Positions 1 through 62,617 of a DNA stretch of 64,000 nucleotides are shown here, piece by piece; position 1 is the stretch's first letter; every line of letters begins with the position of its first letter. Both the position numbers and the translations under genes were made by a program. The DNA comes from a virus. The stretch is taken from positions 1 through 64,000 of IMG/VR virus record IMGVR_UViG_3300008954_000025; one strand, written 5' to 3'. The notes beneath the pieces were generated by a model, which was not told where the DNA came from, did no database searches, and saw only the letters and a program-made list of their open reading frames with translations.

Positions 1-136
1 CCTTCGCCTTCGGCCTCGGCCTGTTCCGGCTCCATCGAGCCGAGGTCCAGTTCCGCAAAGCGCTCTGGGCGCGGCGCGAGTAGCGCGGTTCCGTGGCGGG
101 GCGCTCGCGCGCGCGTGACTGTCCGTACAGAAACTA

Positions 137-169
137 TTGCCACCCACACAGTTGTGTGGTACCACACAA
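137..169 (+). promoter_or_regulatory. Sigma70-like promoter overlapped by a perfect 18-bp palindrome (operator candidate)
   Basis: TTGCCA(137-142)-17 bp-TACCAC(160-165), TG two bases before the -10, ATG 6 nt downstream; TTGTGTGGTACCACACAA (152-169) is a perfect palindrome; a further CCACACA at 144-150. Confidence 0.6.
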
Positions 170-171
170 GA

Positions 172-465
172 ATGAGCCACACCGCGACGACGAGACGTGA
201 CTTCCTTTGGCAGTTTGCCGGGACCGCGGTAGCAGTGGTCGCTGTCGGTGCGGGGGCCCTCGCAGGCAGCGGCGCGCCTCCCGCGACCAGGGCGCTCGCG
301 ACCATTCGCATCAACGGTGAGGTGGTCGGCTACGCGCCCGAGTTCACGCTCGTCGAGCCTGGTGCGCTCGGCGATGTCGTGACCTTGGACCTCCCTTACG
401 AAGTGCTGCCAGCCACGTACAGCTGCACGTTCACATGCCCCGCCGCACGGAGCCGACGTGAGTAG
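172..465 (+). CDS. Tat-signal protein with truncated tail-tube-like domain
   Basis: MSHTATTRRDFLW twin-arginine motif, hydrophobic stretch, ALA cleavage site; remainder aligns by eye with the tail tube protein at 43605 (VGYA, LD, E..P..Y..TFT). Confidence 0.7.
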   Translation: MSHTATTRRDFLWQFAGTAVAVVAVGAGALAGSGAPPATRALATIRINGEVVGYAPEFTLVEPGALGDVVTLDLPYEVLPATYSCTFTCPAARSRRE

Positions 466-5961: not shown

Positions 5962-7695
5962 GTGAGCGTTCATGCGCCGCGAGTGGGCCGGAAGGTCATC
6001 GACGCGATGTGCCGCCGCTCGCTGGCCTTCTTCGCGAGCGAGAAGCTCCTAGGCGATCCAGAACCGCCCTTTTCTGGACGCTTCCTCGTCGCGCAGCACC
6101 ACGAGGAATGGTCGGACCTCATATGCAACAACGACCGTGTCTGCATCGAAGCGGCGCGAGGACATGGCAAGAGCCACTTCTTCACCCTGGCCCTGCCGTT
6201 GTGGGACGCGTTCCGGGTTAAGCGCGCCGGCCTCGACCCACCCGACTGCGTCATCTTCTCTGCGAGTCAGCGGCAGGCCCAGCGCCTGCTGAAGAAGGTC
6301 CAGATCCAGCTCGAAACGAACCCGAAGCTCGCGCACCTTCTCCCCGGCGAGCAGGAGCGCAGGCAGTGGTCGTCGCAGGGGCTCAGGCTGGCCAACGGCT
6401 ACACGATCAACGCGAGCGGGTACGGTACGAAGGTCCGCGGTGGCCACCCGCGCCTGATCGTGGTCGACGACGGGTTCAACGACAACACGGCCTACTCGGA
6501 GGTGGTGCGGGCCAAGGAGATCGACTACTTCTTCCAGGCCATCCGCCCGATGCTGATCCCCGGCGGCAAGATCGCCGTCGTCGGCACGCCGCTGCACCGC
6601 CAGGATCTCTACGCGCTGCTGTCGAAGAACCCGCAGTACCAGTTCCGCCGGTACCCCGCGATCCGCGAAGGGGAGGGGCCGAACAAGGGGCAGCCGCTGT
6701 GGCCAGAGCTCTACTCGATGGAGGACCTTCGGGCGATCGAGGAGGAGGTCAAGTCGATCCGGTTCACCCGCGAGTACCTGTGCCAGCCCGTCGCTGACGG
6801 CAGCTCGCTGTTCCCTCGGCGGCTCTTCGAGGGCGAGAACGTCGAGCAACCGGACGTGCGCCTCGGCATGCCGCTGGAGTTCTGGCGAAGGCTCGGGATC
6901 CAGTTCACGGCCATCGGTGTGGACTTCGGCCTCAGCAGCTCGGTCTCAGCGGACTACACCGTCGTGTGGACGATGGGCCTCGACAGCACAGGGAACCGGT
7001 GGATCATGGACATCTATCGGGAGAAGGGCCTCGAATACACCGAGCAGAAGAAGCTCATCGTCCATGCCGCCAAGCGCTACCAAGCCGACCTGGTCTACGT
7101 CGAGAGCAACCAGGCGCAGCGCATCTACGGTGACGAGCTCCGCAACGAGACGGACCTGCCGATCCAGAACCACAACACTGGCGAGAACAAGCACTCGCAG
7201 GTGAAGGGGCTGCCCGCGCTCCGCGTGCTGCTCGAGAACCGGAAGTACCGGCTGCCGATGGGTGACGAGCGGAGCCGCGCGCTCATCGGCGCGTGGATTG
7301 AGGAGATGCAGGGCGTCACGGTGCAGATGGGTAAGGTGGTCAGCCTGGCTGAGCACGACGACCTGCCGATGGCCAACTGGATCTGCGAGCGCGCGTTCGC
7401 CGACACCCCGTTCGACTTCAGCTTTGGCGAAGAGGACGGCGACAAGGAGGCGTTCGACGAGCTGATGCTCGACATCGCCGGCACGGGTGATCCAGCGAGC
7501 CCCGACTACATCGAGGACGACGCCTTCGTTCTGGGCGCGGAGCCCGCCGGCCGTGGTCGGCCACCGACGATCAACGCGCGCATGGTGGACGGGCACCCCG
7601 AGGACGTGTTGCACGCGACTGAGCCTCCAGCTAAGAACCAGGGGTACCCGTTCGGCGCGCCGACTGCTGCGCAGATCCTGGGAGGCGGCTTCTGA
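5962..7695 (+). CDS. terL: Terminase large subunit
   Basis: Walker A AARGHGKS, Walker B LIVVDD, VGTP coupling motif, F.REY.C, nuclease GVDFG and HDD. Confidence 0.95.
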   Translation: MSVHAPRVGRKVIDAMCRRSLAFFASEKLLGDPEPPFSGRFLVAQHHEEWSDLICNNDRVCIEAARGHGKSHFFTLALPLWDAFRVKRAGLDPPDCVIFSASQRQAQRLLKKVQIQLETNPKLAHLLPGEQERRQWSSQGLRLANGYTINASGYGTKVRGGHPRLIVVDDGFNDNTAYSEVVRAKEIDYFFQAIRPMLIPGGKIAVVGTPLHRQDLYALLSKNPQYQFRRYPAIREGEGPNKGQPLWPELYSMEDLRAIEEEVKSIRFTREYLCQPVADGSSLFPRRLFEGENVEQPDVRLGMPLEFWRRLGIQFTAIGVDFGLSSSVSADYTVVWTMGLDSTGNRWIMDIYREKGLEYTEQKKLIVHAAKRYQADLVYVESNQAQRIYGDELRNETDLPIQNHNTGENKHSQVKGLPALRVLLENRKYRLPMGDERSRALIGAWIEEMQGVTVQMGKVVSLAEHDDLPMANWICERAFADTPFDFSFGEEDGDKEAFDELMLDIAGTGDPASPDYIEDDAFVLGAEPAGRGRPPTINARMVDGHPEDVLHATEPPAKNQGYPFGAPTAAQILGGGF

Positions 7696-9366: not shown

Positions 9367-11181
9367 GTGGCGGACGGCAACGAGACGGGGTCGTTCCGGC
9401 GAACCCTGCTGAGCTTCGCGGCCAAGTCGGCCGCCGCTGGATTGGACCGCCTCGAGGACGCGCTCTTCGACAAGGGTGAGGGCGCGGACATCGGCACAGA
9501 GCCGACAGGCGGCGCAGGGGCGCCCGGCACCGAGGCTGCGGCGTCGTCCACGCAGGGCGCGCCCGTCGTCAAGGGTGGCGCGCTCGGCCGGACGCTGCAC
9601 AGCGACTTCGCCCCGGCGGCGCCGTCGACCGGGCTCCGCGACGCGATGATCTCGAAGGCGCAGGCCACCGGCGCGATCCCCGGCGAGCCGCTCACCGAAG
9701 CCCAGGCGATCTACTGGGACCCATTCGCCCTGGTCGAGCAGCTCGGCTACAAGGAGAAGCCGACCGCCATCACCTACGGCACGCTGCAGGCGATGGTCTG
9801 GCGGCTGCCGATCCTGCGCGCGATCATCAAGACGCGCGTGGACCAGGTGGCGTCATTCTGCCTGCCACAGCAGCCGCCGCAAGACCCGGGGTTCCGGATC
9901 CGGCTGCGCGAGACCGACCGCACCCCGCAGGCGTTCGAGCTCCAGGAGATGCGCCGCCTCGAGGAGTGGCTGCTCACGACTGGCGTGATCCAGGTGGACC
10001 GGCGCGAGCGGCACGGGATGGAGTACCTCGTCCGGCAGGTCACCAACGACACGCTGATGTACGACCAGCTCAACATGGAGGTCGTCAGCGACCGTAAGGG
10101 CCGGCCGAGTCAGTGGTACTCCGTCGACCCCGCGACCGTACGCTTCGTCGACTCCGCCAAGCTGGCGCCGGACCACTCGATGGACGCGCCCTACGCGGTC
10201 CAGATCTACGACAACGTCGTCACCGGCGAGTTCACGCGGCGCGAGATGGTGTTCGGCGTCCGGAACCCGCGCAGCGACATTCGCTCGCACGGCTACGGCA
10301 CGTCCGAGACCGAGATGATGGTCAACACCGTCACCTACCTGCTGTGGGGGATGGAGTACAACGGCCGGCAGTTCTCGCAGGGCTCGATCGCCAAGGGCCT
10401 GCTCAACATCAAGGGGCCGATGCCCGAGCGCCAGCTCCGCGCGTTCCGGCGGCAGTGGTACCAGATGGTGGCCGGCGTCGAGAACGCGTGGCGCACGCCC
10501 ATCGTCAACGCCGAGGACCTGGAGTGGATCGACCTCAACAAGTCGAACCGCGACATGGAGTTCGGGCACTGGCTCGACTTCCTGATCAAGATCGCGTGCG
10601 CCATCTTCGCGATGGACCCGATCGAGGTGAACTTCAAGTACGGCGGCTCGGGCCAGAAGGCCATGTTCGAGGCCGCCAACAAGGTGAAGATCGTCGAGTC
10701 GAAAGCGAAGGGCCTGCAGCCTCTGCTGAAGTTCGTCGCCAGCATCTTCAACGAGAACATCCTGTGGCCGAACAGCGAGGACTTCACGCTCGAGTTCACC
10801 GGGCTGAGCCCGATGACGCCGAAGGAGCTCGCCGACCTCGAAACGCAGAAGGTCCGGACGTACATGATGGTGGACGAGATCCGCGCGATGCACGACCTGC
10901 CGCCGCTGGCTGACGGCCTGGGTCAGATCATCGACTCACCGAACTGGATGGAGGCGCGACGCGAGCTGCTGCTGCAGGAGCAGATGGACGCCGAGCAGGG
11001 CGGCGGCAAGCCGTCGTCCGATGGCGGCAAGCCGTCGTCCAGCGGGGGCAGCAGCGCTACGGATACGAGCACGGCCACACCCGGCACGGCGCCGGGCGGT
11101 ACGCAGCAACCTCCTCCGCCGGTGACCAAGTCGCTGACCGGCGCGCTAGGGAGCGACACCGTCTGGGACATCAGGCTGTAA
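9367..11181 (+). CDS. Portal protein
   Basis: Herelleviridae-like motifs: IIKTRVDQVA.F, D.LMYDQ.N.E, VDPATVR, RNPRSD...GYG.SE.E, NAW.TP, DMEF..W..FLI, SK.KGL.PLL. Confidence 0.93.
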   Translation: MADGNETGSFRRTLLSFAAKSAAAGLDRLEDALFDKGEGADIGTEPTGGAGAPGTEAAASSTQGAPVVKGGALGRTLHSDFAPAAPSTGLRDAMISKAQATGAIPGEPLTEAQAIYWDPFALVEQLGYKEKPTAITYGTLQAMVWRLPILRAIIKTRVDQVASFCLPQQPPQDPGFRIRLRETDRTPQAFELQEMRRLEEWLLTTGVIQVDRRERHGMEYLVRQVTNDTLMYDQLNMEVVSDRKGRPSQWYSVDPATVRFVDSAKLAPDHSMDAPYAVQIYDNVVTGEFTRREMVFGVRNPRSDIRSHGYGTSETEMMVNTVTYLLWGMEYNGRQFSQGSIAKGLLNIKGPMPERQLRAFRRQWYQMVAGVENAWRTPIVNAEDLEWIDLNKSNRDMEFGHWLDFLIKIACAIFAMDPIEVNFKYGGSGQKAMFEAANKVKIVESKAKGLQPLLKFVASIFNENILWPNSEDFTLEFTGLSPMTPKELADLETQKVRTYMMVDEIRAMHDLPPLADGLGQIIDSPNWMEARRELLLQEQMDAEQGGGKPSSDGGKPSSSGGSSATDTSTATPGTAPGGTQQPPPPVTKSLTGALGSDTVWDIRL

Positions 11182-40843: not shown

Positions 40844-43594
40844 ATGACGGCGACCACGATCTTCTTCGACGGACGACTGACCGCTATCCCCGGCGTGGAG
40901 ACGCGCGTGGATGCCTCTGCGCTCGAGCAGGTGGGCCTGGGCGCGAGCGGCGTGGTGGGACTTATCGGTACCGGCGTCGGTGGCCGGCCCGTGAGCTCGG
41001 GCATGACTGTCGACCAGATCATCCAGCTGACCAGCCCCCGAGCTGCGCGGGACACCTTCCGCTCCGGCGACCTGCGTGAGGCGTGCTCCGTCGCGTTCGA
41101 GCCGAGCACCGACGCGGCCATTCCTGGTGGCGCCCAGACGATCATCGCCATGAAGGTCAACCAGGCGACGCAGGCCACCGCGGTCCTGTCCAACACCATC
41201 GGCGACGCGCTGACTCTGACCTCCGAGGATTGGGGTGAGTTCACCAACCAGATCAAGGTCTCGGTGGGCAACGCAGGTGCCGGCGCATTCGGGCGCTTGC
41301 TCACCGTGGTGCTGGAGGCGACCACCGAGTCGGGCGACGGTGTTGGGCAGGTCGACGACACGATCACTAACCAAGAGACGGCGCTGTTCCAGCTCGACTA
41401 CGAGCCGAGCACGCTGCTCGACGCCGGCTGGGAGACGATGACGGCCGACGTCCTGCCCACTGGGACTGTCCGCTGCTACGGCACGCGGACCGACCCCGGG
41501 CTCGACGGCGACGTGGACAGTGGCGATACCATGCCGGGCGGCGCTGACACGCTCGAGGTCCTCGCCGCAGTCACCAGCGCGAACATGGTCTCCAAGGTCG
41601 TTACGGTCTACGGCCTCAACAACGCTGGTACGCCGGCGCCCGTTAGTGAGCAGTTTACGCTGCACGCTGTCGATGCTGCCGCGAATCCCATCGCCGGCAC
41701 CGTGACCTTCTCCAAGGTGCTCGGTGTCATCGTCGACCAGACGTCCGGCAGCGGCGTCGCGACGGACCAGATCATCAACGTCCGTGAAGCGTCTGGCAAC
41801 ACGGTCATCTACTCGGTCGCCGTCGCCGCGCTGCGTGAAGGTCTCGTGCAGCCCTCGGCCATGTTCGTTGGCGGGACGACGATCGTCGGCGCGCTCGACG
41901 CAGCGCCTGGCGGCACGCGCGACGTCGCTGTCTGGGGTCTGGCGGCCAACGGCGCCGCGGCCTCCGACACGCTGCAGTTCACGATCGCGAATGGGGCCGT
42001 CGCCGTGCGCGGCTCGACGAACTTCTCACAGATCGACGTCATCGCCCTCGGCGACATGGACGCAGGCCGGACACTGACGATCAGCGCCGTCGCGGCGCAG
42101 ACCAACGGCTCCATCGATACGCTGACGAAGGTGCAGGACTACTTCAACGCGCGACAGGTCGACAACGTCGCCGCCGGCGCGCAGGAGTTCGGCTTCACGT
42201 TCACGATGCGGACGGCGCAGACGGGCCTCGACCCGGCCTTGCTCGACTGGACGAACACGCCGACGAACATCTTCAACCAAGGTTCGCCTGCGACCGCGCA
42301 CGCCGGCTTCTCGGCTGTGCTCAACGCGATGGTTGACTACTACACCACCAGCTCGGACCTGGTGACGCCTACTCGCACGGCGTTCACTGCGAAGCTGTAC
42401 ACGTTGTCGATCACGACGGAGGGCATCGGCGACTGGGACGTGACGATCGACGGCGTCACCGTGACGTACACGGCCGACGGTGCCGACACGGTCACGACCA
42501 TCGCAGCGGGGCTCGTCCTGCTCATCAACAACCACCCGACCCTGTCGCAGTACGTGCTCGCGGCCTCGACGGCGGGCGTCCTCACGGTCTCGGGCTCGAC
42601 ACCGCGGGCGACGACTGGGTTCATCACGACCATCGCCGGGGCTGCTGGTGGAGGCACCTGGGCGCTCGTGCTGACGACGGCGCAGGCGGGTAGCGGGCAG
42701 CCGCCAGACAACGTCACCAACCAGTTCCTCTCCGGTGGCGGTGAGGGTGTCGCGGCCGGCGGTGATTGGCAGGAGGCGCTCGACCAGCTCCGCAAGGTGG
42801 ACTGCAACACCATCGTGGTGCTCAGCGGCGACCCGGCCGTGCACAGCGCGCTCGAGGCGCACTGCGCGTATATGGGCGGCGCCGGCAAGTCGGAGCGCGA
42901 CGGTATCGTCGGGCTGTCCGCGGTCGACTCGGACAACGCGCCGACCGGCGTGCTGCCTGCCAAGGCGAGCATCAAGTCGCAGGTCCTGAGCATCAACTCG
43001 CGGCACATCCGAGCCTGCGCGCAGACGATCGATCGGCCGAACACCGCCGGCGTCTCGACGACGTTCATGCCGTGGTTCCAGGCCGCCGGCGCTGCGGGCA
43101 TGCAAGCCGGCAGTCCCGTCGGCACCAGCCTCACGCGCAAGACCATGAAGGTCGCGGCCATCGCGCAGGACAGCTCGTGGGATCCGGTCGAGGACGCGCA
43201 CGAGATGATCCTCGCCGGCCTGTGGTTCATGGAGGCGCACCGCACGGGCCGCCGCTGCGTCCGGAACATCACGACGTACCTGCAGTCGGTCAACCTGGCC
43301 TTCGTCGAGGCGTCGGTGAACGAGGCGGTGAACTTCACCGTGTTCAACTTCCGGAACGCGATGGAGACGGTGGTCGGCGAGCCAGGCTTTGCGGGCACGC
43401 TGGCTGCGGGCAAGAGCGCGGCGCAGACCAGCCTCAACCTGCAGCTGCGGGAGGGGGCCGTCATCCAGTGGCGGGCGCTGTCGCTCACGCTGGCCGCCGA
43501 CGTGATGGACGTCTCGGTGGAGGTCGCGCCCATCATCCCGGTCAACTTCGTCAGGGCAACGGTCCACCTGGTCACGTTGTCCCAGGCGGCGTAA
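40844..43594 (+). CDS. Contractile tail sheath protein with large insertion domains
   Basis: F.G.....PGV...VD.S.L, V..IG...GG.P, FRSGDL, S.DWG...N; C-terminal L.GG..G, SLT.K, ITTY, E.SV, PI.PVNFV. Confidence 0.92.
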   Translation: MTATTIFFDGRLTAIPGVETRVDASALEQVGLGASGVVGLIGTGVGGRPVSSGMTVDQIIQLTSPRAARDTFRSGDLREACSVAFEPSTDAAIPGGAQTIIAMKVNQATQATAVLSNTIGDALTLTSEDWGEFTNQIKVSVGNAGAGAFGRLLTVVLEATTESGDGVGQVDDTITNQETALFQLDYEPSTLLDAGWETMTADVLPTGTVRCYGTRTDPGLDGDVDSGDTMPGGADTLEVLAAVTSANMVSKVVTVYGLNNAGTPAPVSEQFTLHAVDAAANPIAGTVTFSKVLGVIVDQTSGSGVATDQIINVREASGNTVIYSVAVAALREGLVQPSAMFVGGTTIVGALDAAPGGTRDVAVWGLAANGAAASDTLQFTIANGAVAVRGSTNFSQIDVIALGDMDAGRTLTISAVAAQTNGSIDTLTKVQDYFNARQVDNVAAGAQEFGFTFTMRTAQTGLDPALLDWTNTPTNIFNQGSPATAHAGFSAVLNAMVDYYTTSSDLVTPTRTAFTAKLYTLSITTEGIGDWDVTIDGVTVTYTADGADTVTTIAAGLVLLINNHPTLSQYVLAASTAGVLTVSGSTPRATTGFITTIAGAAGGGTWALVLTTAQAGSGQPPDNVTNQFLSGGGEGVAAGGDWQEALDQLRKVDCNTIVVLSGDPAVHSALEAHCAYMGGAGKSERDGIVGLSAVDSDNAPTGVLPAKASIKSQVLSINSRHIRACAQTIDRPNTAGVSTTFMPWFQAAGAAGMQAGSPVGTSLTRKTMKVAAIAQDSSWDPVEDAHEMILAGLWFMEAHRTGRRCVRNITTYLQSVNLAFVEASVNEAVNFTVFNFRNAMETVVGEPGFAGTLAAGKSAAQTSLNLQLREGAVIQWRALSLTLAADVMDVSVEVAPIIPVNFVRATVHLVTLSQAA

Positions 43595-43604
43595 GGAGTA
43601 GTTC

Positions 43605-44084
43605 ATGGCGGCACCGGCTTCACAACGCGCAGGCATCACCAAGGGCTTGGTCGCCACGGGCGCGCGCGTCCACCTGGCGATCAAGCAGAGGCCGGTGGGG
43701 TACGCGACGATCGCGTCGTACTCCGAGACGATCGGCTACGACCCCGTGGCCGTGCTCGACCAGATGGAAATCGCCGAGCACGTGCCCGTCAGCTACGACG
43801 TCACGTTCACCGCAGCGCGGCTGTACATCGTCAAGAAGTCGCTCAAGGAGATCGGCTTCATGCCGCAGTGGCCCTCGGGCCAGGGCAGCGATCAGCTCCT
43901 GCTGAACATCCTCGCCCTCGGCGAGATGACGGCCGACATCATCGACCAGCAAGTGAGCACGCTCGTGTCGCTCGAAGGCGTCCGGGTCACGTCGCACAAC
44001 CTGACCTTCGGCGCGCGCAGCATCGTGGGCGAGGACGTGGCGTTCGTGGCTATCCGCGCCATCGACGCGGTCGAGGCGCCGTAG
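43605..44084 (+). CDS. Tail tube protein
   Basis: Follows sheath; TGARV.L.I....VGYA, PV.VLD.....EHVPV.Y.V. Confidence 0.85.
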   Translation: MAAPASQRAGITKGLVATGARVHLAIKQRPVGYATIASYSETIGYDPVAVLDQMEIAEHVPVSYDVTFTAARLYIVKKSLKEIGFMPQWPSGQGSDQLLLNILALGEMTADIIDQQVSTLVSLEGVRVTSHNLTFGARSIVGEDVAFVAIRAIDAVEAP

Positions 44085-58862: not shown

Positions 58863-60659
58863 GTGAGCGACACCAAGAAGTACCTGCGTACCGAAGACGG
58901 CGAGCGCGTCGACCAGCCGGACTTCCAGCACGCGGCCGAGCGCTCTCAGCTCAACGGCCTCACCCAGATGGGCGACTCGGTGCTGGTGGGCGTCGACCGC
59001 GCACGTGCAGCTGCGGGCGACCCGGCGCAGCTGCGTCACTACGTGCTCGAGGGCTTCGAGGTCCGGGCGCAGGCGTCCGGCTCCATCGTCGAAGTCGACG
59101 GCGGCGTCGCGCTCATGGGCTACCGCCATGAGCGCCAGGTGCAGTACGGCGCGGTGAACTCCGGCCAGACGATGCAGCTGCACGACGTCGGCGGGGCCGC
59201 GAACCCTGGCGTCGTGCACACCATCTGGGTCCGCTTCAACCTCGCCGACGAGGACCCCGGCAACCGCGCCTTCTGGAACAGCGCCGGCGCGCCGCCAGTC
59301 GAGATCGTGCGCAGCATCCCCACCCGGCTCGCCGAGGAGTGGCAGATTACGCACACCGAGGGCGACTGGCAGGTCGCGGGCACCGTGTCGCCCGGAGACG
59401 AGTGGATGCCAGTCGCGACGGTCACGCCGTCGGACATCACCAACACGCTCACCGGCACGCGCGTCTTCTACTTCGAGGGCCGGGAGTCCGCGCTCTTCGA
59501 GTTGGGCGACGCGGACTGGGGCCACGCCACCGACCGCGATCCCCTGCGCGAGACGAACGGCGTCTTCGGCTTCCGGCGCTTCGCGATGGGCGTGCTGAGG
59601 CAGTTGCAGGGCATCATTCACGGCTCAGGCTCGGTGTCACTCGGCAGCCAGCCCTGGTACACGGACGTCACGGGATTCACCTCCGCCGGTGACGAGCAGG
59701 GCCTGCGCGAGCTTCATTTCAACAAGCTCGACAGTCGCGGACGCACAGCCGGGTCGCCATACGGCGAGATGACGGGCCACCTGGACCCCGCCCTCGCCAA
59801 CGACAATACGCTCGACATCGGCAGCCTAACCCAGCGCTGGCGCGACTTCATCGGCCGCGGCGTCCAGCTCGGCGCGGGGTTCATCGCGTCGCAGGCCGAC
59901 GCGCTGCTGCCGCGCATCACGATGCCCGTGCGCACAACGGCGCTCGACCGCACGCTGCTGTGGGAAGTCACTGACTCATCGTACGCGCCAGGCACGTTCC
60001 GCCTCTACGCCTCCAAGCCTGCCGGGACTGGCCTGGCTTATGTAGCGACGCTCAATGCGGCCTGGAACCCCGCCACGAGCCAATGGGATCGCGACGTCGT
60101 CCTCGGAGCACGAGACGCAGTCATCGTTAGTGTCACACCCGAGTCTGCGACCCTAACCATCGGTCGACACGCCGCTGCGCTCGCAGCCTCATGGAACGAT
60201 GTTTTCGCGGCAGGGGGCAGCGACTGGGCCATTGTGTTTCGGGGACCCAACAACGGCACCAACCGATCGGAGCTCGACTCATTCGACCTCACGAACAACG
60301 CGGGCGCGACTGTCGGCGGTAGCGAGAGCGTCTACGCCAACTCGATCTGCAAGGCGTGGGGTATGGTCCAGACCGACGGCGCGGGGCTCATCTCCACTCG
60401 TCGTGGATACGGCTACGACCAGGCCGGACTCGTGCTTACCGGACCTGGCGGGCTGCAGGTCGACCTGCTGGGCACACCGATCAGCACCTTCGACTACGCC
60501 GTGGTCACCAGCGTGGTCAACGCAGCTACTGGGACACCCGCCGCGATCGGCGCGCTTCCTGATGCGCTCCAGCCCGAGCGCTTCGTGATCAACTCGACGC
60601 TCAACTTCAACACCGTCTCCGTGAAGATCTTCTTCCAGGTCTTCGGGCGCACCTCGTGA
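58863..60659 (+). CDS. Tail fibre / baseplate-attached protein
   Basis: ERVD.PDF N-terminus, D....DIGS...RW, C-terminal N.I.KAWG.V. Confidence 0.7.
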   Translation: MSDTKKYLRTEDGERVDQPDFQHAAERSQLNGLTQMGDSVLVGVDRARAAAGDPAQLRHYVLEGFEVRAQASGSIVEVDGGVALMGYRHERQVQYGAVNSGQTMQLHDVGGAANPGVVHTIWVRFNLADEDPGNRAFWNSAGAPPVEIVRSIPTRLAEEWQITHTEGDWQVAGTVSPGDEWMPVATVTPSDITNTLTGTRVFYFEGRESALFELGDADWGHATDRDPLRETNGVFGFRRFAMGVLRQLQGIIHGSGSVSLGSQPWYTDVTGFTSAGDEQGLRELHFNKLDSRGRTAGSPYGEMTGHLDPALANDNTLDIGSLTQRWRDFIGRGVQLGAGFIASQADALLPRITMPVRTTALDRTLLWEVTDSSYAPGTFRLYASKPAGTGLAYVATLNAAWNPATSQWDRDVVLGARDAVIVSVTPESATLTIGRHAAALAASWNDVFAAGGSDWAIVFRGPNNGTNRSELDSFDLTNNAGATVGGSESVYANSICKAWGMVQTDGAGLISTRRGYGYDQAGLVLTGPGGLQVDLLGTPISTFDYAVVTSVVNAATGTPAAIGALPDALQPERFVINSTLNFNTVSVKIFFQVFGRTS

Positions 60660-60982
60660 TGAAGCAGGCCAAGAACTGGCTCAAGTGGATCGGCGGTCTC
60701 GTGCTGTTCGTCCTGGTCGCCGCCGGCGCGCGGGCATTGTTCATGCGGCGCGGCCGGCCGGTCCTGCCGGACGTGAAGCACGAGCTCGCCGCGATCGAGG
60801 CCGAGCGCAAGACGGCCCGCCTCGAGGCCGAGCGTGGTCACGCTGAGGCGCTCGCGGCCGTGTACCGCGACCACGCGGATGCGCTGGCCGGCCTGGACGA
60901 CGCCGCCGCGGCAGAGGCAGAATCGCTGAGTGCCGACCCTCAAGCGCTGGCTGGCTTCCTGGTGCGTGCTGCTCGCGGGTAG
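60656..60982 (+). CDS. Inner-membrane spanin-like protein
   Basis: N-terminal TM then Ala-rich coiled coil; overlaps next gene. Confidence 0.55.
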   Translation: MMKQAKNWLKWIGGLVLFVLVAAGARALFMRRGRPVLPDVKHELAAIEAERKTARLEAERGHAEALAAVYRDHADALAGLDDAAAAEAESLSADPQALAGFLVRAARG

Positions 60983-61397
60983 CGCCGTCGCGTACGCCGA
61001 AGTCGAGTGCGACACCGCCTTCCCTGACCGCTGCTCGGCCCCCATCGAAGCGGGCGCCCCGGCGCCGTTCGCCGGCCAGGTGCTGACGACCGAACTGGCC
61101 GTGGCGCTCGGGCAGAAGGCCAACGCAGCCGCAGCTCGCCAGGCGCTGGCCGTGCGTACAGCGACGCGCGCAGCGGCCGTGGAACACCGATACCGGCTAG
61201 ACCTGGCCGCTGCGGACACCCACGCGTGCGAGCGGCGCGAGCTGGTTCAGCAGGAGCGGGCGGAGCGCGCAGAGGAAGCTGTGCGGGCGGCCGAGCCGGG
61301 CGTGCTCGACCACCCGCTGTTCTGGGCGCTCATAGGCGTAAGTGTGATGGCCGGCGCCTTCGCGCTGGCTCGCGGTGAGATCAAAGGGCTCGAGTAG
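60930..61397 (+). CDS. Spanin-like secreted protein with C-terminal TM
   Basis: Signal peptide, G.PAPFAG..L motif, coiled coil, HPLFWALIGV..GA anchor. Confidence 0.55.
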   Translation: MPTLKRWLASWCVLLAGSAVAYAEVECDTAFPDRCSAPIEAGAPAPFAGQVLTTELAVALGQKANAAAARQALAVRTATRAAAVEHRYRLDLAAADTHACERRELVQQERAERAEEAVRAAEPGVLDHPLFWALIGVSVMAGAFALARGEIKGLE

Positions 61398-61417
61398 GCG
61401 CCTGCGCGCCCTCGGGC

Positions 61418-61807
61418 CTACAGGAAGCGCTGCTGCACTTCGACCGAGCTGACGAGGTCGCGGGTAGCCGCGTCCACGTTGTCGCCGGTCTGCACCGTGA
61501 CGATGTCGCCAGGCTCCACGTCGATGGACAGGCTGAGTGTGTCCTGCGACGTCGAGGCGGCGGCCATGGTAGCCTGGGCGCCGCTGTTGATCGTGCCGTT
61601 GACGGCGACGGCCGTGTCCTGGTCGCCGGCCGGCGCGACACGAGACGCCACGCGGTGAGCGATGATGCGGCCGCGGATGCCGACGACGCCTCCGCCGAAG
61701 CGGGTGTTCGCTACGGTCGGCTGCGCCGAGAACGCGTCGATGCGCATCGAGTTGCGGAACTGGCCCGCGATGTTTGCCCAGTCGCTGGGGCTGTTCGGCG
61801 TTACCAT
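61418..61807 (-). CDS. Hypothetical beta-rich protein, possibly virion decoration
   Basis: 129 aa ORF; TG-T-TACACA 6 nt before ATG. Confidence 0.6.
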   Translation of the reverse strand: MVTPNSPSDWANIAGQFRNSMRIDAFSAQPTVANTRFGGGVVGIRGRIIAHRVASRVAPAGDQDTAVAVNGTINSGAQATMAAASTSQDTLSLSIDVEPGDIVTVQTGDNVDAATRDLVSSVEVQQRFL

Positions 61808-61840
61808 GAAGTGTGTGTAACATAGCCCCCGCGATGACGG

Positions 61841-62617
61841 CTAGGGCTGCATGTCGATGAAGTCCAGGCGGCTGTAGGACCTGCGTCGGGCGCAGACTTC
61901 GTAGCCCTCCCGGCTGCCTTCGTCGTTCGTGTTGCCTTCGATGGTCGTCACCACGCTCGGCGTGGCGTCCGTGACGATGCCGGTGTGCGCCCAGTCGTCG
62001 TCGCGACGATAGGTGAGGAAGAGGTCCCCAGCTCGAAGCTGCGGGAGCGTGCGTCCGGGACGTGGGGCGGACGCGTAGCGGATCAGCCGGCCGTCCTGCT
62101 CTGCCGCGAGCGCGAGCACGTCGCAGCTGACCGTGCTGCGCAGCGGCCGATCAGCGCCCGTGGCCTCGCACGCCTGCCCGATGATGTAGCTGACGAAGCC
62201 TGCGCACCAGGCCCACACGTCGCCGTCGCGGCCGCTGCAGTACAGGCGCACCCACGGCCCCCGGTTCTGGCCGCCGACCTCCCTGGGGTGCTGCGCGAGG
62301 TGCTGCTTGGCGAAGTGGACGATCGCCTCGGGGAGTGTCATGCCGACTGTTGCCTGCCGGTCGATCGCAGCGGCGCGCTCCATCGGACGGTGCAGCGCCT
62401 GCCACGTGGTCGCGTCGACCTCGCCGTACTGGACTGGGGCGCGGCGCCCCACGTTGACCTGGAAGGCTGTGACGGCCGCTTCGGTCGCGGGGCCGAAGTC
62501 CCCGTCTATGGCGCAGCCGAAGTCGTGCAGGTTGAGCCACTCTTGGAGGTCCCGAACGTCAGTTCCCCGGCTCCCCTTCCGCAACACGCGCCGATGGTGA
62601 CACGGGGTTCGCCTCAA
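61841..62617 (-). CDS. Endolysin: peptidoglycan-binding domain plus CHAP-type peptidase (start may be GTG 62587)
   Basis: LRKGSRG.DV..LQ..L, DGDFGPATEAAV..FQ; WCAGFV, HTGIV, TIEGNT. Confidence 0.9.
   Translation of the reverse strand: MRRTPCHHRRVLRKGSRGTDVRDLQEWLNLHDFGCAIDGDFGPATEAAVTAFQVNVGRRAPVQYGEVDATTWQALHRPMERAAAIDRQATVGMTLPEAIVHFAKQHLAQHPREVGGQNRGPWVRLYCSGRDGDVWAWCAGFVSYIIGQACEATGADRPLRSTVSCDVLALAAEQDGRLIRYASAPRPGRTLPQLRAGDLFLTYRRDDDWAHTGIVTDATPSVVTTIEGNTNDEGSREGYEVCARRRSYSRLDFIDMQP

What the first reader, a model, noticed from the sequence alone, without database searches (positions are those of the whole stretch)
172..465. Tat signal peptide fused to a truncated paralogue of the phage's own tail tube
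Seen: the N-terminus is a textbook twin-arginine signal (TRRDFL, hydrophobic core, ALA). The mature part ALATIRINGEVVGYAPEFTLVEPGALGDVVTLDLPYEVLPATYSCTFT aligns with one 2-residue gap to tube residues ARVHLAIKQRPVGYATIASYSETIGYDPVAVLDQMEIAEHVPVSYDVTFT (shared A, I, VGYA, E, V, LD, E, P, Y, TFT). It sits 43 kb from the tail module behind its own promoter. Known: Tat exports folded proteins, whereas tube proteins assemble in the cytoplasm. Inference: an exported half-tube could be a superinfection-exclusion decoy that caps or jams incoming related tails, or a sink for a host sensor of tube protein. I know of no described example.
Basis: partly seen in the sequence, partly recalled or inferred. 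Interest (0 to 1): 0.8.

Follow-up and report, generated by a model that had tools for sequence, protein, structure and literature searches.

The report
Export-tagged fragment of phage tail tube
An uncultured marine phage carries a small gene that joins a bacterial folded-protein (Tat) export signal to a copy of the most conserved third of its own tail-tube protein; the design is real and kept in a sister phage, I found no paper describing it, and its function (possibly blocking rival phages at the cell envelope) is untested.

Summary
Window 172-465 (+) is a 97-codon gene. It starts with a near-consensus twin-arginine motif (TRRDFL), an uncharged Ala/Gly/Val core and an ALA cleavage-type site.

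Residues 42-92 are homologous to residues 20-71 of the phage's own tail tube (43605-44084):
- Pairwise BLASTP alone is marginal (E 0.004).
- Profile comparison gives 95-96% probability (E about 1e-8). Its score is 51, against a maximum of 20 in 200 column shuffles.
- The tube-family HMM ranks this ORF and its one homologue directly after the tube among 1,157 six-frame ORFs.

The only homologue (102 aa, 40% identity) sits at the same place in a sister phage. It keeps both parts and passes the curated Tat-signal cut-offs. The signal is under purifying selection. The tube-like part and the whole cassette have diverged much further than the flanking genes.

The fragment is a third of the tube, not half. 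"Own promoter" is not shown; there is only a perfectly conserved upstream element. The function is inferred only. My best guess is an exported or membrane-anchored tube mimic that interferes with DNA delivery by incoming related phages.

Earlier notes of this scan (unchecked) describe analogous Tat-tagged virion-protein pieces in other, unrelated phage genomes.

The parts
3..83 (+). 3' end of the upstream gene, cut by the contig end. In the sister phage it is an 86-aa Gly/Ala-rich probable two-helix membrane protein.
   Evidence: Aligns with L007:2113-2193, 85% aa identity, stop TAG 81-83.
84..171 (+). Intergenic region with two blocks that are 100% conserved in the sister phage: GTGACTGTCCGTACAGAAA (115-133) and CCACACA-GT-TGTGTGG-TA-CCACACA (144-168), ending 3 nt before the ATG. 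It is a candidate regulator or promoter site; its function is not shown.
   Evidence: alignment. The blocks are unique in the window. There is no sigma-70 consensus and no unusual RNA fold, z about 0.
172..465 (+). The 97-aa gene (protein P0001): Tat-type signal plus tube-derived domain.
172..297 (+). Tat-type signal peptide or signal anchor, residues 1-42: n-region, TRRDFL, h-region, c-region ending in ALA.
   Evidence: 63% aa identity to the homologue with dN/dS 0.13. The AVGAGAL block has 7 of 7 codons that differ only at the third base.
295..447 (+). Tube-homologous domain, residues 42-92. It corresponds to tube residues 20-71 (strands 1-3 and the loop between strands 2 and 3). It is followed by a short basic tail (448-462).
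   Evidence: It keeps tube-family residues G32 Y33 A34 L51 D52 P61 Y64 F68.
40844..43594 (+). Tail sheath gene (context).
   Evidence: phrog_279 tail sheath, E 8.9e-44.
43605..44084 (+). Tail tube gene, the parent paralogue (159 aa).
   Evidence: phrog_985. Profile hit to the phage 812 tail tube 8q01_A, E 1.7e-7. AF2 model (pLDDT 67) matches tail tubes of phage 812, cyanophage A-1(L), monocin, diffocin and others.

Best explanation
Shown: window 172-465 is a real, protein-coding accessory gene of an uncultured marine contractile-tailed phage. Its product has a twin-arginine (Tat) type N-terminal signal. Its roughly 55-residue body descends from an old partial duplication of the phage's own tail-tube gene. 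It keeps only the first three beta-strands and their connecting loop, which is the most conserved third of the tube family.

Inferred:
- The host Tat pathway carries the protein across the cytoplasmic membrane. It is then either released by signal peptidase after ALA-42 or left anchored by the uncleaved signal, as in Rieske proteins.
- There it acts as a molecular mimic of the tube. It binds a partner that normally contacts this part of the tube in an incoming virion of the same or a related phage. Candidate partners are the tape measure protein as it leaves the tube, or the exposed distal tube or hub ring.
- This blocks genome delivery (superinfection exclusion).
- The fast divergence of the mature part, and the replacement of the whole cassette between sister phages, would then reflect specificity matching to each phage's own tail.

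My confidence that the gene and its two-part architecture are real is about 0.85. The figure below is for the whole statement, including the function.
For: Gene reality and selection:
- The codon-position GC pattern is coding-like.
- A syntenic homologue shares 40% identity and keeps both parts.
- The signal region has dN/dS 0.13 at saturated dS, and the AVGAGAL block is kept through 7 of 7 synonymous third-base changes.
- Both alleles recur unchanged in several metagenome contigs.

Tat signal:
- The consensus TRRDFL lies at residues 6-12 with a suitable h-region and c-region.
- The homologue passes TIGR01409 and PF10399.
- The weak PDB hits are all N-terminal Tat signal anchors of Rieske proteins.

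Tube homology.

Ancient origin rather than recent copying: no DNA-level similarity to the tube gene.

The copied part is the best-conserved part of the tube: mean column conservation 0.81, against 0.51 and 0.64 for the rest.

Accessory, variable locus:
- The cassette has dS 1.45, against 0.47 in both flanks.
- The sister phage has two extra small genes next to it.
- A private, perfectly conserved upstream element is present.
- The gene is not in the lysis cassette, which lies at 60.6-62.6 kb.

Precedent for envelope-located phage proteins that stop DNA delivery by binding tail parts: T4 Imm binds the tape measure protein, and HK97 gp15 is cited likewise (bioRxiv 10.64898/2026.03.06.709160).
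Against: - No experiment or structure supports export, binding or exclusion.
- The window protein itself scores below the curated Tat cut-offs.
- A three-strand fragment of a beta-sandwich may not fold alone, and the monomer model is unusable (pLDDT 47).
- The family has only two alleles in one lineage, so conservation evidence is thin. The dN/dS values rest on 30-96 codons with saturated dS.
- The mature part's dN/dS of about 0.6 is also compatible with relaxed constraint.
- The host and its envelope type are unknown. The only hints are a weak Rz-like spanin match and a relative's contig binned with a Gemmatimonadetes MAG.
- No integrase was found (all records are partial). Exclusion would therefore have to act during lytic infection, as in T4.
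Confidence: 0.38

Rival explanations
1. The protein is real and exported, but it serves another envelope role. It could carry a signal-less partner across the membrane by the Tat 'hitchhiker' route, for example full-length tube or another late protein bound by strand complementation. It could mask or modify a host envelope component used as a receptor. It could protect the infected cell from tailocins or related contractile devices.
For: The evidence for a real gene, a Tat signal and tube homology is the same as above. Nothing here points to the incoming phage as the target rather than some other partner. Earlier scan notes, which are unchecked, name hitchhiker Tat substrates as a closest known case for similar genes.
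Against: I know of no precedent for a phage exporting its own tail parts. The fragment lacks two thirds of the fold needed to form a ring. A locus that is variable and fast-diverging is more typical of conflict genes than of a core step in the phage's own cycle.
Confidence: 0.2
2. Neutral leftover. A partial duplication of the tube gene happened to acquire a hydrophobic, arginine-rich leader. It persists in one lineage without function and is slowly decaying.
For: Only two alleles are known. The mature part is only 33% identical between them, with dN/dS about 0.6. GC3 (0.78) is lower than in most genes of the window, which show 0.85-0.95. There is no Shine-Dalgarno at the usual spacing.
Against: The frame is intact in both alleles despite saturated synonymous divergence. 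The signal has dN/dS 0.13, with 7 of 7 synonymous-only codon changes in its core. Eight tube-family hallmark residues are kept in both alleles. A 100% conserved element lies just upstream. Each allele is identical across several samples.
Confidence: 0.15
3. Cytoplasmic decoy. The fragment stays in the cell and soaks up a host defence sensor that recognises tube protein (DSR2-like). The N-terminus would not be used for export.
For: DSR2 is activated by phage tail tube protein; solved DSR2-tube complexes appear among the fold matches of this phage's tube. The copied segment is the most conserved part of the tube, which is the kind of surface a sensor would read.
Against: The Tat motif and h-region are the best-conserved part of the gene and pass curated Tat models in the homologue. 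That is hard to explain for a cytoplasmic decoy. No defence or anti-defence family matched.
Confidence: 0.07
4. Chance resemblance, or not a gene at all.
For: The single pairwise BLASTP E-value is only 0.004. High-GC DNA gives many Arg/Ala-rich open frames, and a second Tat-like motif occurs in a non-coding frame at about 70.8 kb of the contig.
Against: Profile-level statistics and shuffling controls argue against it. So do the reciprocal search, the syntenic homologue and the selection signal.
Confidence: 0.03

Closest known systems
Tail tube proteins of contractile tails (this phage's own tube at 43605-44084; Staphylococcus phage 812 tube, PDB 8Q01/8R5G; T4 gp19 family PF06841)
   Same: Residues 42-92 are homologous to tube residues 20-71 (hhalign probability 95-96%). 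Hallmark residues G-Y-A, L-D, P, Y and F are kept. The protein-language-model search also points to PF06841 clusters, but only at a lead-level score of 0.78.
   Different: Only one third of the fold is present. It has an export signal in place of the tube's N-terminal arm. It is encoded 43 kb from the tail module, between the leftward genes and the terminase. It cannot form a tube ring by itself.
Tat signal peptides, including the uncleaved signal anchors of Rieske iron-sulfur proteins (TIGR01409, PF10399)
   Same: The S/T-R-R-x-F-L motif, a weakly hydrophobic h-region, and a c-region with a basic residue and A-x-A. The homologue passes both curated models. The weak PDB hits are all Rieske N-termini.
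   Different: The passenger is a roughly 55-aa fragment of a virion protein, not a cofactor enzyme. The window allele is below the cut-offs. Export is untested.
Envelope-located superinfection exclusion proteins that block DNA delivery: T4 Imm and HK97 gp15 (bioRxiv 10.64898/2026.03.06.709160), P22 SieA (PMC10883804), TP-J34 Ltp (from my own knowledge)
   Same: It is small, phage-encoded and predicted to sit outside the cytoplasm. These proteins act on the tail's tape measure or channel, which is the partner class proposed here.
   Different: There is no sequence relation. None of them is derived from a virion protein, and none that I know of uses a Tat signal. The function here is only inferred.
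Tab, tail assembly blocker of Pseudomonas prophages (PMC10884400)
   Same: A phage-encoded protein that targets the tail (tape measure) of a competing phage.
   Different: Tab acts in the cytoplasm on assembly. It has no export signal and is not tube-derived.
Analogous genes noted earlier by this scan on other phage genomes (e1-5873460, e1-5740632, e1-5704135, e1-5411941, e1-5935399; AI notes, unchecked)
   Same: The same design idea: a Tat signal joined to a copy or pieces of the phage's own tube, capsid or sheath, encoded away from the structural module.
   Different: They are not sequence relatives of this gene. Some are full-length or mosaic. Two of those phages are said to carry their own TatA, which I did not find here (partial records).

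Membership tests
Tat (twin-arginine) signal peptide | S/T-R-R-x-F-L-K-type motif close to the N-terminus | tested here: met
   T-R-R-D-F-L lies at residues 6-12 in the window protein and 8-14 in P0003. It is the only strict match at an ORF start in the 88-kb contig.
Tat (twin-arginine) signal peptide | Uncharged, moderately hydrophobic h-region followed by a c-region with a signal-peptidase site | tested here: met
   The 18-aa h-region has mean hydropathy 1.55 in the window protein and 1.12 in P0003. ALA lies at 40-42, and P0003 has GAA a few residues earlier. The site is not strictly conserved, so an uncleaved anchor is possible.
Tat (twin-arginine) signal peptide | Score above the curated cut-off of TIGR01409 or PF10399 | tested here: inconclusive
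   The window protein scores 9.8 vs 16.7 and 19 vs 24, which is not met. P0003 scores 17.7 vs 16.7 and 25 vs 24, which is met.
Tat (twin-arginine) signal peptide | Export depends on TatABC and on the arginine pair | not testable with these tools
   This needs a reporter assay. SignalP and TatP were not available.
Contractile-tail tube protein family | Significant sequence or profile similarity to tube proteins | tested here: met
Contractile-tail tube protein family | Complete tube fold of about 140-160 residues, able to form hexameric rings | tested here: not met
   Only tube residues 20-71 are represented. No tube-like sequence lies downstream in any frame. The monomer model is unusable. It is therefore a derivative, not a member.
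Contractile-tail tube protein family | Encoded beside the sheath gene in the tail module | tested here: not met
   It lies 43 kb upstream of the sheath and tube genes and 5.5 kb upstream of the terminase.
Known superinfection exclusion or defence protein families | Sequence membership in a described family | tested here: not met
   Pfam, PHROGs, NCBIfam and PADLOC gave no match beyond the Tat signal.
Known superinfection exclusion or defence protein families | Protects the expressing cell from infection | not testable with these tools
   This needs a cultured host or a surrogate system.

The most novel reading that the evidence does not exclude
Large uncultured phages may export copies of the most conserved pieces of their own virion proteins through the host Tat pathway. 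In this case it is the tape-measure-facing or ring-forming strands of the tail tube. The exported pieces would be envelope-located mimics that trap or jam the delivery apparatus of superinfecting relatives. That would make this a class of exclusion protein created by exaptation of structural genes. This gene would be one independent instance of a wider theme that the scan has also noted on unrelated phages.
Probability: 0.3. Interest if true: 0.8.

Novelty: new variant of a known kind. Interest (0 to 1): 0.62.

Why it matters
Tail tube subunits are cytoplasmic assembly parts. A conserved export tag on a tube fragment means the phage uses a piece of its injection machine outside the cytoplasm.

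If it blocks incoming tails, it would show a simple evolutionary route to exclusion proteins: copy the surface that the target already binds. It would also give a ready-made probe for the poorly known step in which the tube and tape measure meet the inner membrane. And it would explain a class of small 'hypothetical' phage genes.

If it is instead a hitchhiker-type exporter or a decaying copy, that is a useful caution for annotating such genes.

Tried and rejected
- Complex prediction of the mature part with the tube gave no verdict. It counts neither for nor against binding.
- The AlphaFold2 monomer with a 2-sequence alignment had pLDDT 47 and is unusable.
- No RNA holder was listed among the sequencing runs. 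Laid contigs only showed identical sequence in marine metagenomes.
- The word-based homologue search found only the protein itself. The exhaustive HMMER search found one true homologue plus repeat-protein noise.
- Searches anchored on the downstream gene, the terminase, the ORF alignment and the conserved upstream DNA element reached only the same sister lineage.
- Lysis-cassette idea: rejected. The endolysin and a weak Rz-like spanin match lie at 60.6-62.6 kb.
- Recent gene conversion from the tube gene: rejected. There is no DNA similarity.
- Frameshifted full-length paralogue: rejected. There is no tube-like sequence in other frames nearby.
- Longer upstream start (GTG 115): rejected. The extension has a stop in the sister phage.
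- Leader RNA structure: z about 0.
- Sigma-70 promoter: none found.
- Second Tat-like motif at about 70.8 kb of the contig: it lies in a non-coding frame and is a chance match.
- Phage-borne TatA and a tyrosine integrase: not found, in partial records.
- Phage collection searches by DNA and protein: nothing relevant.
- Literature searches for Tat plus tail tube or exclusion: no description found.

Full report
**Setting**

The window is the first 64 kb of an 87.9-kb IMG/VR virus contig, estimated about 55% complete. It has 68% G+C, and nearly all genes lie on the + strand. Runs that hold it are marine metagenomes.

Landmarks:
- large terminase at 5962-7695 and portal at 9367-11181;
- tail sheath at 40844-43594;
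- a 159-aa gene directly after the sheath, at 43605-44084;
- endolysin at 61841-62617 (-) and a weak Rz-like spanin match at 60656-60982.

The 159-aa gene is the tail tube. A profile of 21 homologues hits the solved tail tube of Staphylococcus phage 812 (8q01_A, E 1.7e-7). Its AlphaFold2 model (pLDDT 67) matches tail tubes of phage 812, cyanophage A-1(L), monocin, diffocin, Mu, P1 and others.

**The gene**

An ATG at 172 opens a 97-codon frame that ends at TAG 463-465. GC by codon position (0.66/0.59/0.78) is the most coding-like of the six frames, although GC3 is lower than in most genes here.

The frame happens to stay open to base 1, but that is not coding. The upstream gene ends at TAG 81-83 in another frame, and in the sister phage the stretch before the ATG contains a stop. 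The contig end cuts the upstream gene. In the sister phage that gene encodes an 86-aa Gly/Ala-rich probable membrane protein.

**The Tat part**

Residues 6-12 read T-R-R-D-F-L. An 18-residue uncharged Ala/Gly/Val-rich stretch follows (mean hydropathy 1.55). Then comes a c-region with prolines and one arginine, ending in A-L-A at 40-42.

The window protein is below the curated cut-offs of TIGR01409 (9.8 vs 16.7 bits) and PF10399 (19 vs 24). Its homologue passes both (17.7 and 25 bits). The weak PDB matches of the two-sequence profile are all N-terminal Tat signal anchors of Rieske proteins. An uncleaved anchor is therefore as possible as a cleaved signal. SignalP and TatP were not available.

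**The tube part**

Pairwise BLASTP to the tube is marginal for the window protein (E 0.004, with gaps). It is better for the homologue (E 3e-5, 12 of 21 identical around P-x-S-Y-D-V-x-F-T-A).

Further tests:
- Smith-Waterman scores lie 4.7-5.5 sd above 2000 shuffles, and the tube is the best-scoring of 54 window proteins.
- The ORF pair against 21 tube homologues gives hhalign probability 95.2%, E 2.9e-8, aligning ORF 42-92 with tube 20-71.
- The mature part alone scores 51.1. Two hundred column shuffles gave mean 11.2, sd 2.4, max 20.4, and the reversed sequence gave 11.2.
- A tube-family HMM searched against all 1,157 six-frame ORFs of 40 aa or more in the window and the sister locus ranks the tube first, the sister ORF second (7.5e-5) and the window ORF third (0.018). 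Noise starts at E 4.4.
- Searching the sister records with the tube protein or its profile returns only this ORF.

In the tube model the matched segment is strand 21-26, strand 29-46, a loop, and strand 60-76. It is the best-conserved third of the tube family: mean column conservation is 0.81, against 0.51 and 0.64 elsewhere, and the most conserved 22-residue stretch starts at residue 49. Both alleles keep G32, Y33, A34, L51, D52, P61, Y64 and F68.

There is no DNA-level similarity to the tube gene, so the duplication is old. No tube-like sequence follows in any frame, so the truncation is genuine.

**Relatives**

An exhaustive HMMER search of 1.84 billion representatives found one true homologue, P0003 (102 aa, 40% identity). 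The other hits are repeat proteins. P0003 lies at the same place in a sister phage whose terminase is 92% identical.

The flanks align at 78-79% DNA identity. The ORF itself is barely alignable as DNA. Nei-Gojobori estimates:

| Region | dS | dN | dN/dS |
|---|---|---|---|
| Whole ORF | 1.45 | 0.67 | 0.46 |
| Both flanking genes | 0.47 | - | - |
| Signal (residues 1-30; 63% identical) | - | - | 0.13 |
| Mature part (33% identical) | - | - | about 0.6 |

In the h-region the block A-V-G-A-G-A-L is kept although all seven codons differ at the third base. The signal is therefore under protein-level constraint. The cassette as a whole is older than, or was exchanged independently of, its surroundings.

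The sister phage also has two extra small genes between this ORF and the next shared gene. Each allele recurs unchanged in several contigs or samples.

**Upstream region**

The 88-bp intergenic region contains two blocks that are identical in both phages. One holds three copies of CCACACA, two of them as an inverted repeat, and ends 3 nt before the ATG. The blocks are unique in the window. They match no sigma-70 consensus and fold no better than shuffles. There is no Shine-Dalgarno at the normal distance. A private regulatory site, perhaps with a leaderless message, is plausible but not shown.

In the sister contig the genes further upstream run leftward, and this ORF is about the fifth gene of the rightward unit.

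**What it probably does**

The conserved export signal argues that the tube-derived segment works outside the cytoplasm. The variable, fast-diverging, optional-looking locus is what one expects of a conflict gene.

Known envelope-located exclusion proteins act on the tail's delivery parts. T4 Imm binds the tape measure protein, and HK97 gp15 is thought to do the same (bioRxiv 10.64898/2026.03.06.709160). [quoted passage not shown]

My best reading is that the exported or anchored fragment presents a tube surface to the tape measure, or to the opened tube or hub end, of an incoming related phage, and so stops genome delivery. This is inference. I give the full statement 0.38 and the architecture alone about 0.85.

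Rivals:
- another envelope role, including Tat hitchhiking (0.20);
- a neutral leftover (0.15);
- a cytoplasmic decoy for a tube sensor such as DSR2 (0.07);
- chance (0.03).

**Comparison and novelty**

Four literature searches found no paper on a Tat-tagged tube or virion fragment. The gene is not a member of the tube family, because two thirds of the fold are absent. It is not a member of any described exclusion or defence family either.

Earlier notes of this scan describe Tat signals joined to a tube copy, a sheath domain, or mosaics of capsid and tube pieces in other uncultured phages. These are unchecked AI notes and not sequence relatives. I tested two of their points here. No phage TatA gene was found (partial records). 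The body here is a single contiguous tube segment, not a mosaic.

I rate it a new variant of a known kind: an envelope-located phage accessory protein built from the phage's own tube.

**Limits**

- There are only two alleles.
- The host is unknown. One relative's contig is binned with a Gemmatimonadetes MAG, which is weak evidence.
- There are no expression data and no usable structure.
- The complex prediction gave no verdict.

Noticed in passing
window 172-465 versus L007:2296-2604 and their flanks: Synonymous divergence of the ORF (dS about 1.45) is three times that of the genes on both sides (0.47). The cassette looks exchanged or much older than its surroundings, with the perfectly conserved upstream element as a possible recombination boundary.
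   Followed up: partly
L007:2597-3067: The sister phage has two extra small genes (89 aa, basic coiled-coil-like; 65 aa) between the Tat-tube ORF and the shared downstream gene. The window has only about 100 bp there. Neither matches any family.
   Followed up: partly
window 144-168: Three copies of CCACACA, two of them forming an inverted repeat, end 3 nt before the start codon and are identical in both phages. This may be an operator-like site, and the message may be leaderless.
   Followed up: partly
window 208-252 versus tube residues 7-20 (43623-43664): BLASTP also aligned the signal's h-region with the tube's N-terminal arm (Q-x-A-G...V-A-x-G-A). The Tat signal might have evolved from the tube's own N-terminal arm. 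The segment is low-complexity, so this is unproven.
   Followed up: no
window 3-83; L007:1933-2193 and L007:1121-1660: The genes just upstream encode an 86-aa glycine-zipper-like two-helix membrane protein and a 179-aa coiled-coil protein with a Gly-rich hydrophobic C-terminus. The Tat-tube gene therefore sits in a small cluster of envelope-directed proteins, far from the lysis genes.
   Followed up: partly
G000 contig about 70805-70969 (outside the window): A second Tat-like motif (TTRRDLL plus a hydrophobic stretch) occurs in a 54-codon frame with non-coding GC pattern (0.54/0.64/0.62). I judged it a chance match on the strand opposite a real gene.
   Followed up: yes
window 60656-62617: The lysis genes are split across strands: a weak Rz-like spanin match on + (60656-60982) and an endolysin on - (61841-62617). 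If the spanin is real, it suggests a host with an outer membrane.
   Followed up: partly
window 43605-44084 homologues: Database homologues of the tube carry a precomputed Pfam label, PF26461, that is absent from the Pfam copy searched here. The window's tube therefore got no Pfam hit although its family is apparently curated.
   Followed up: no
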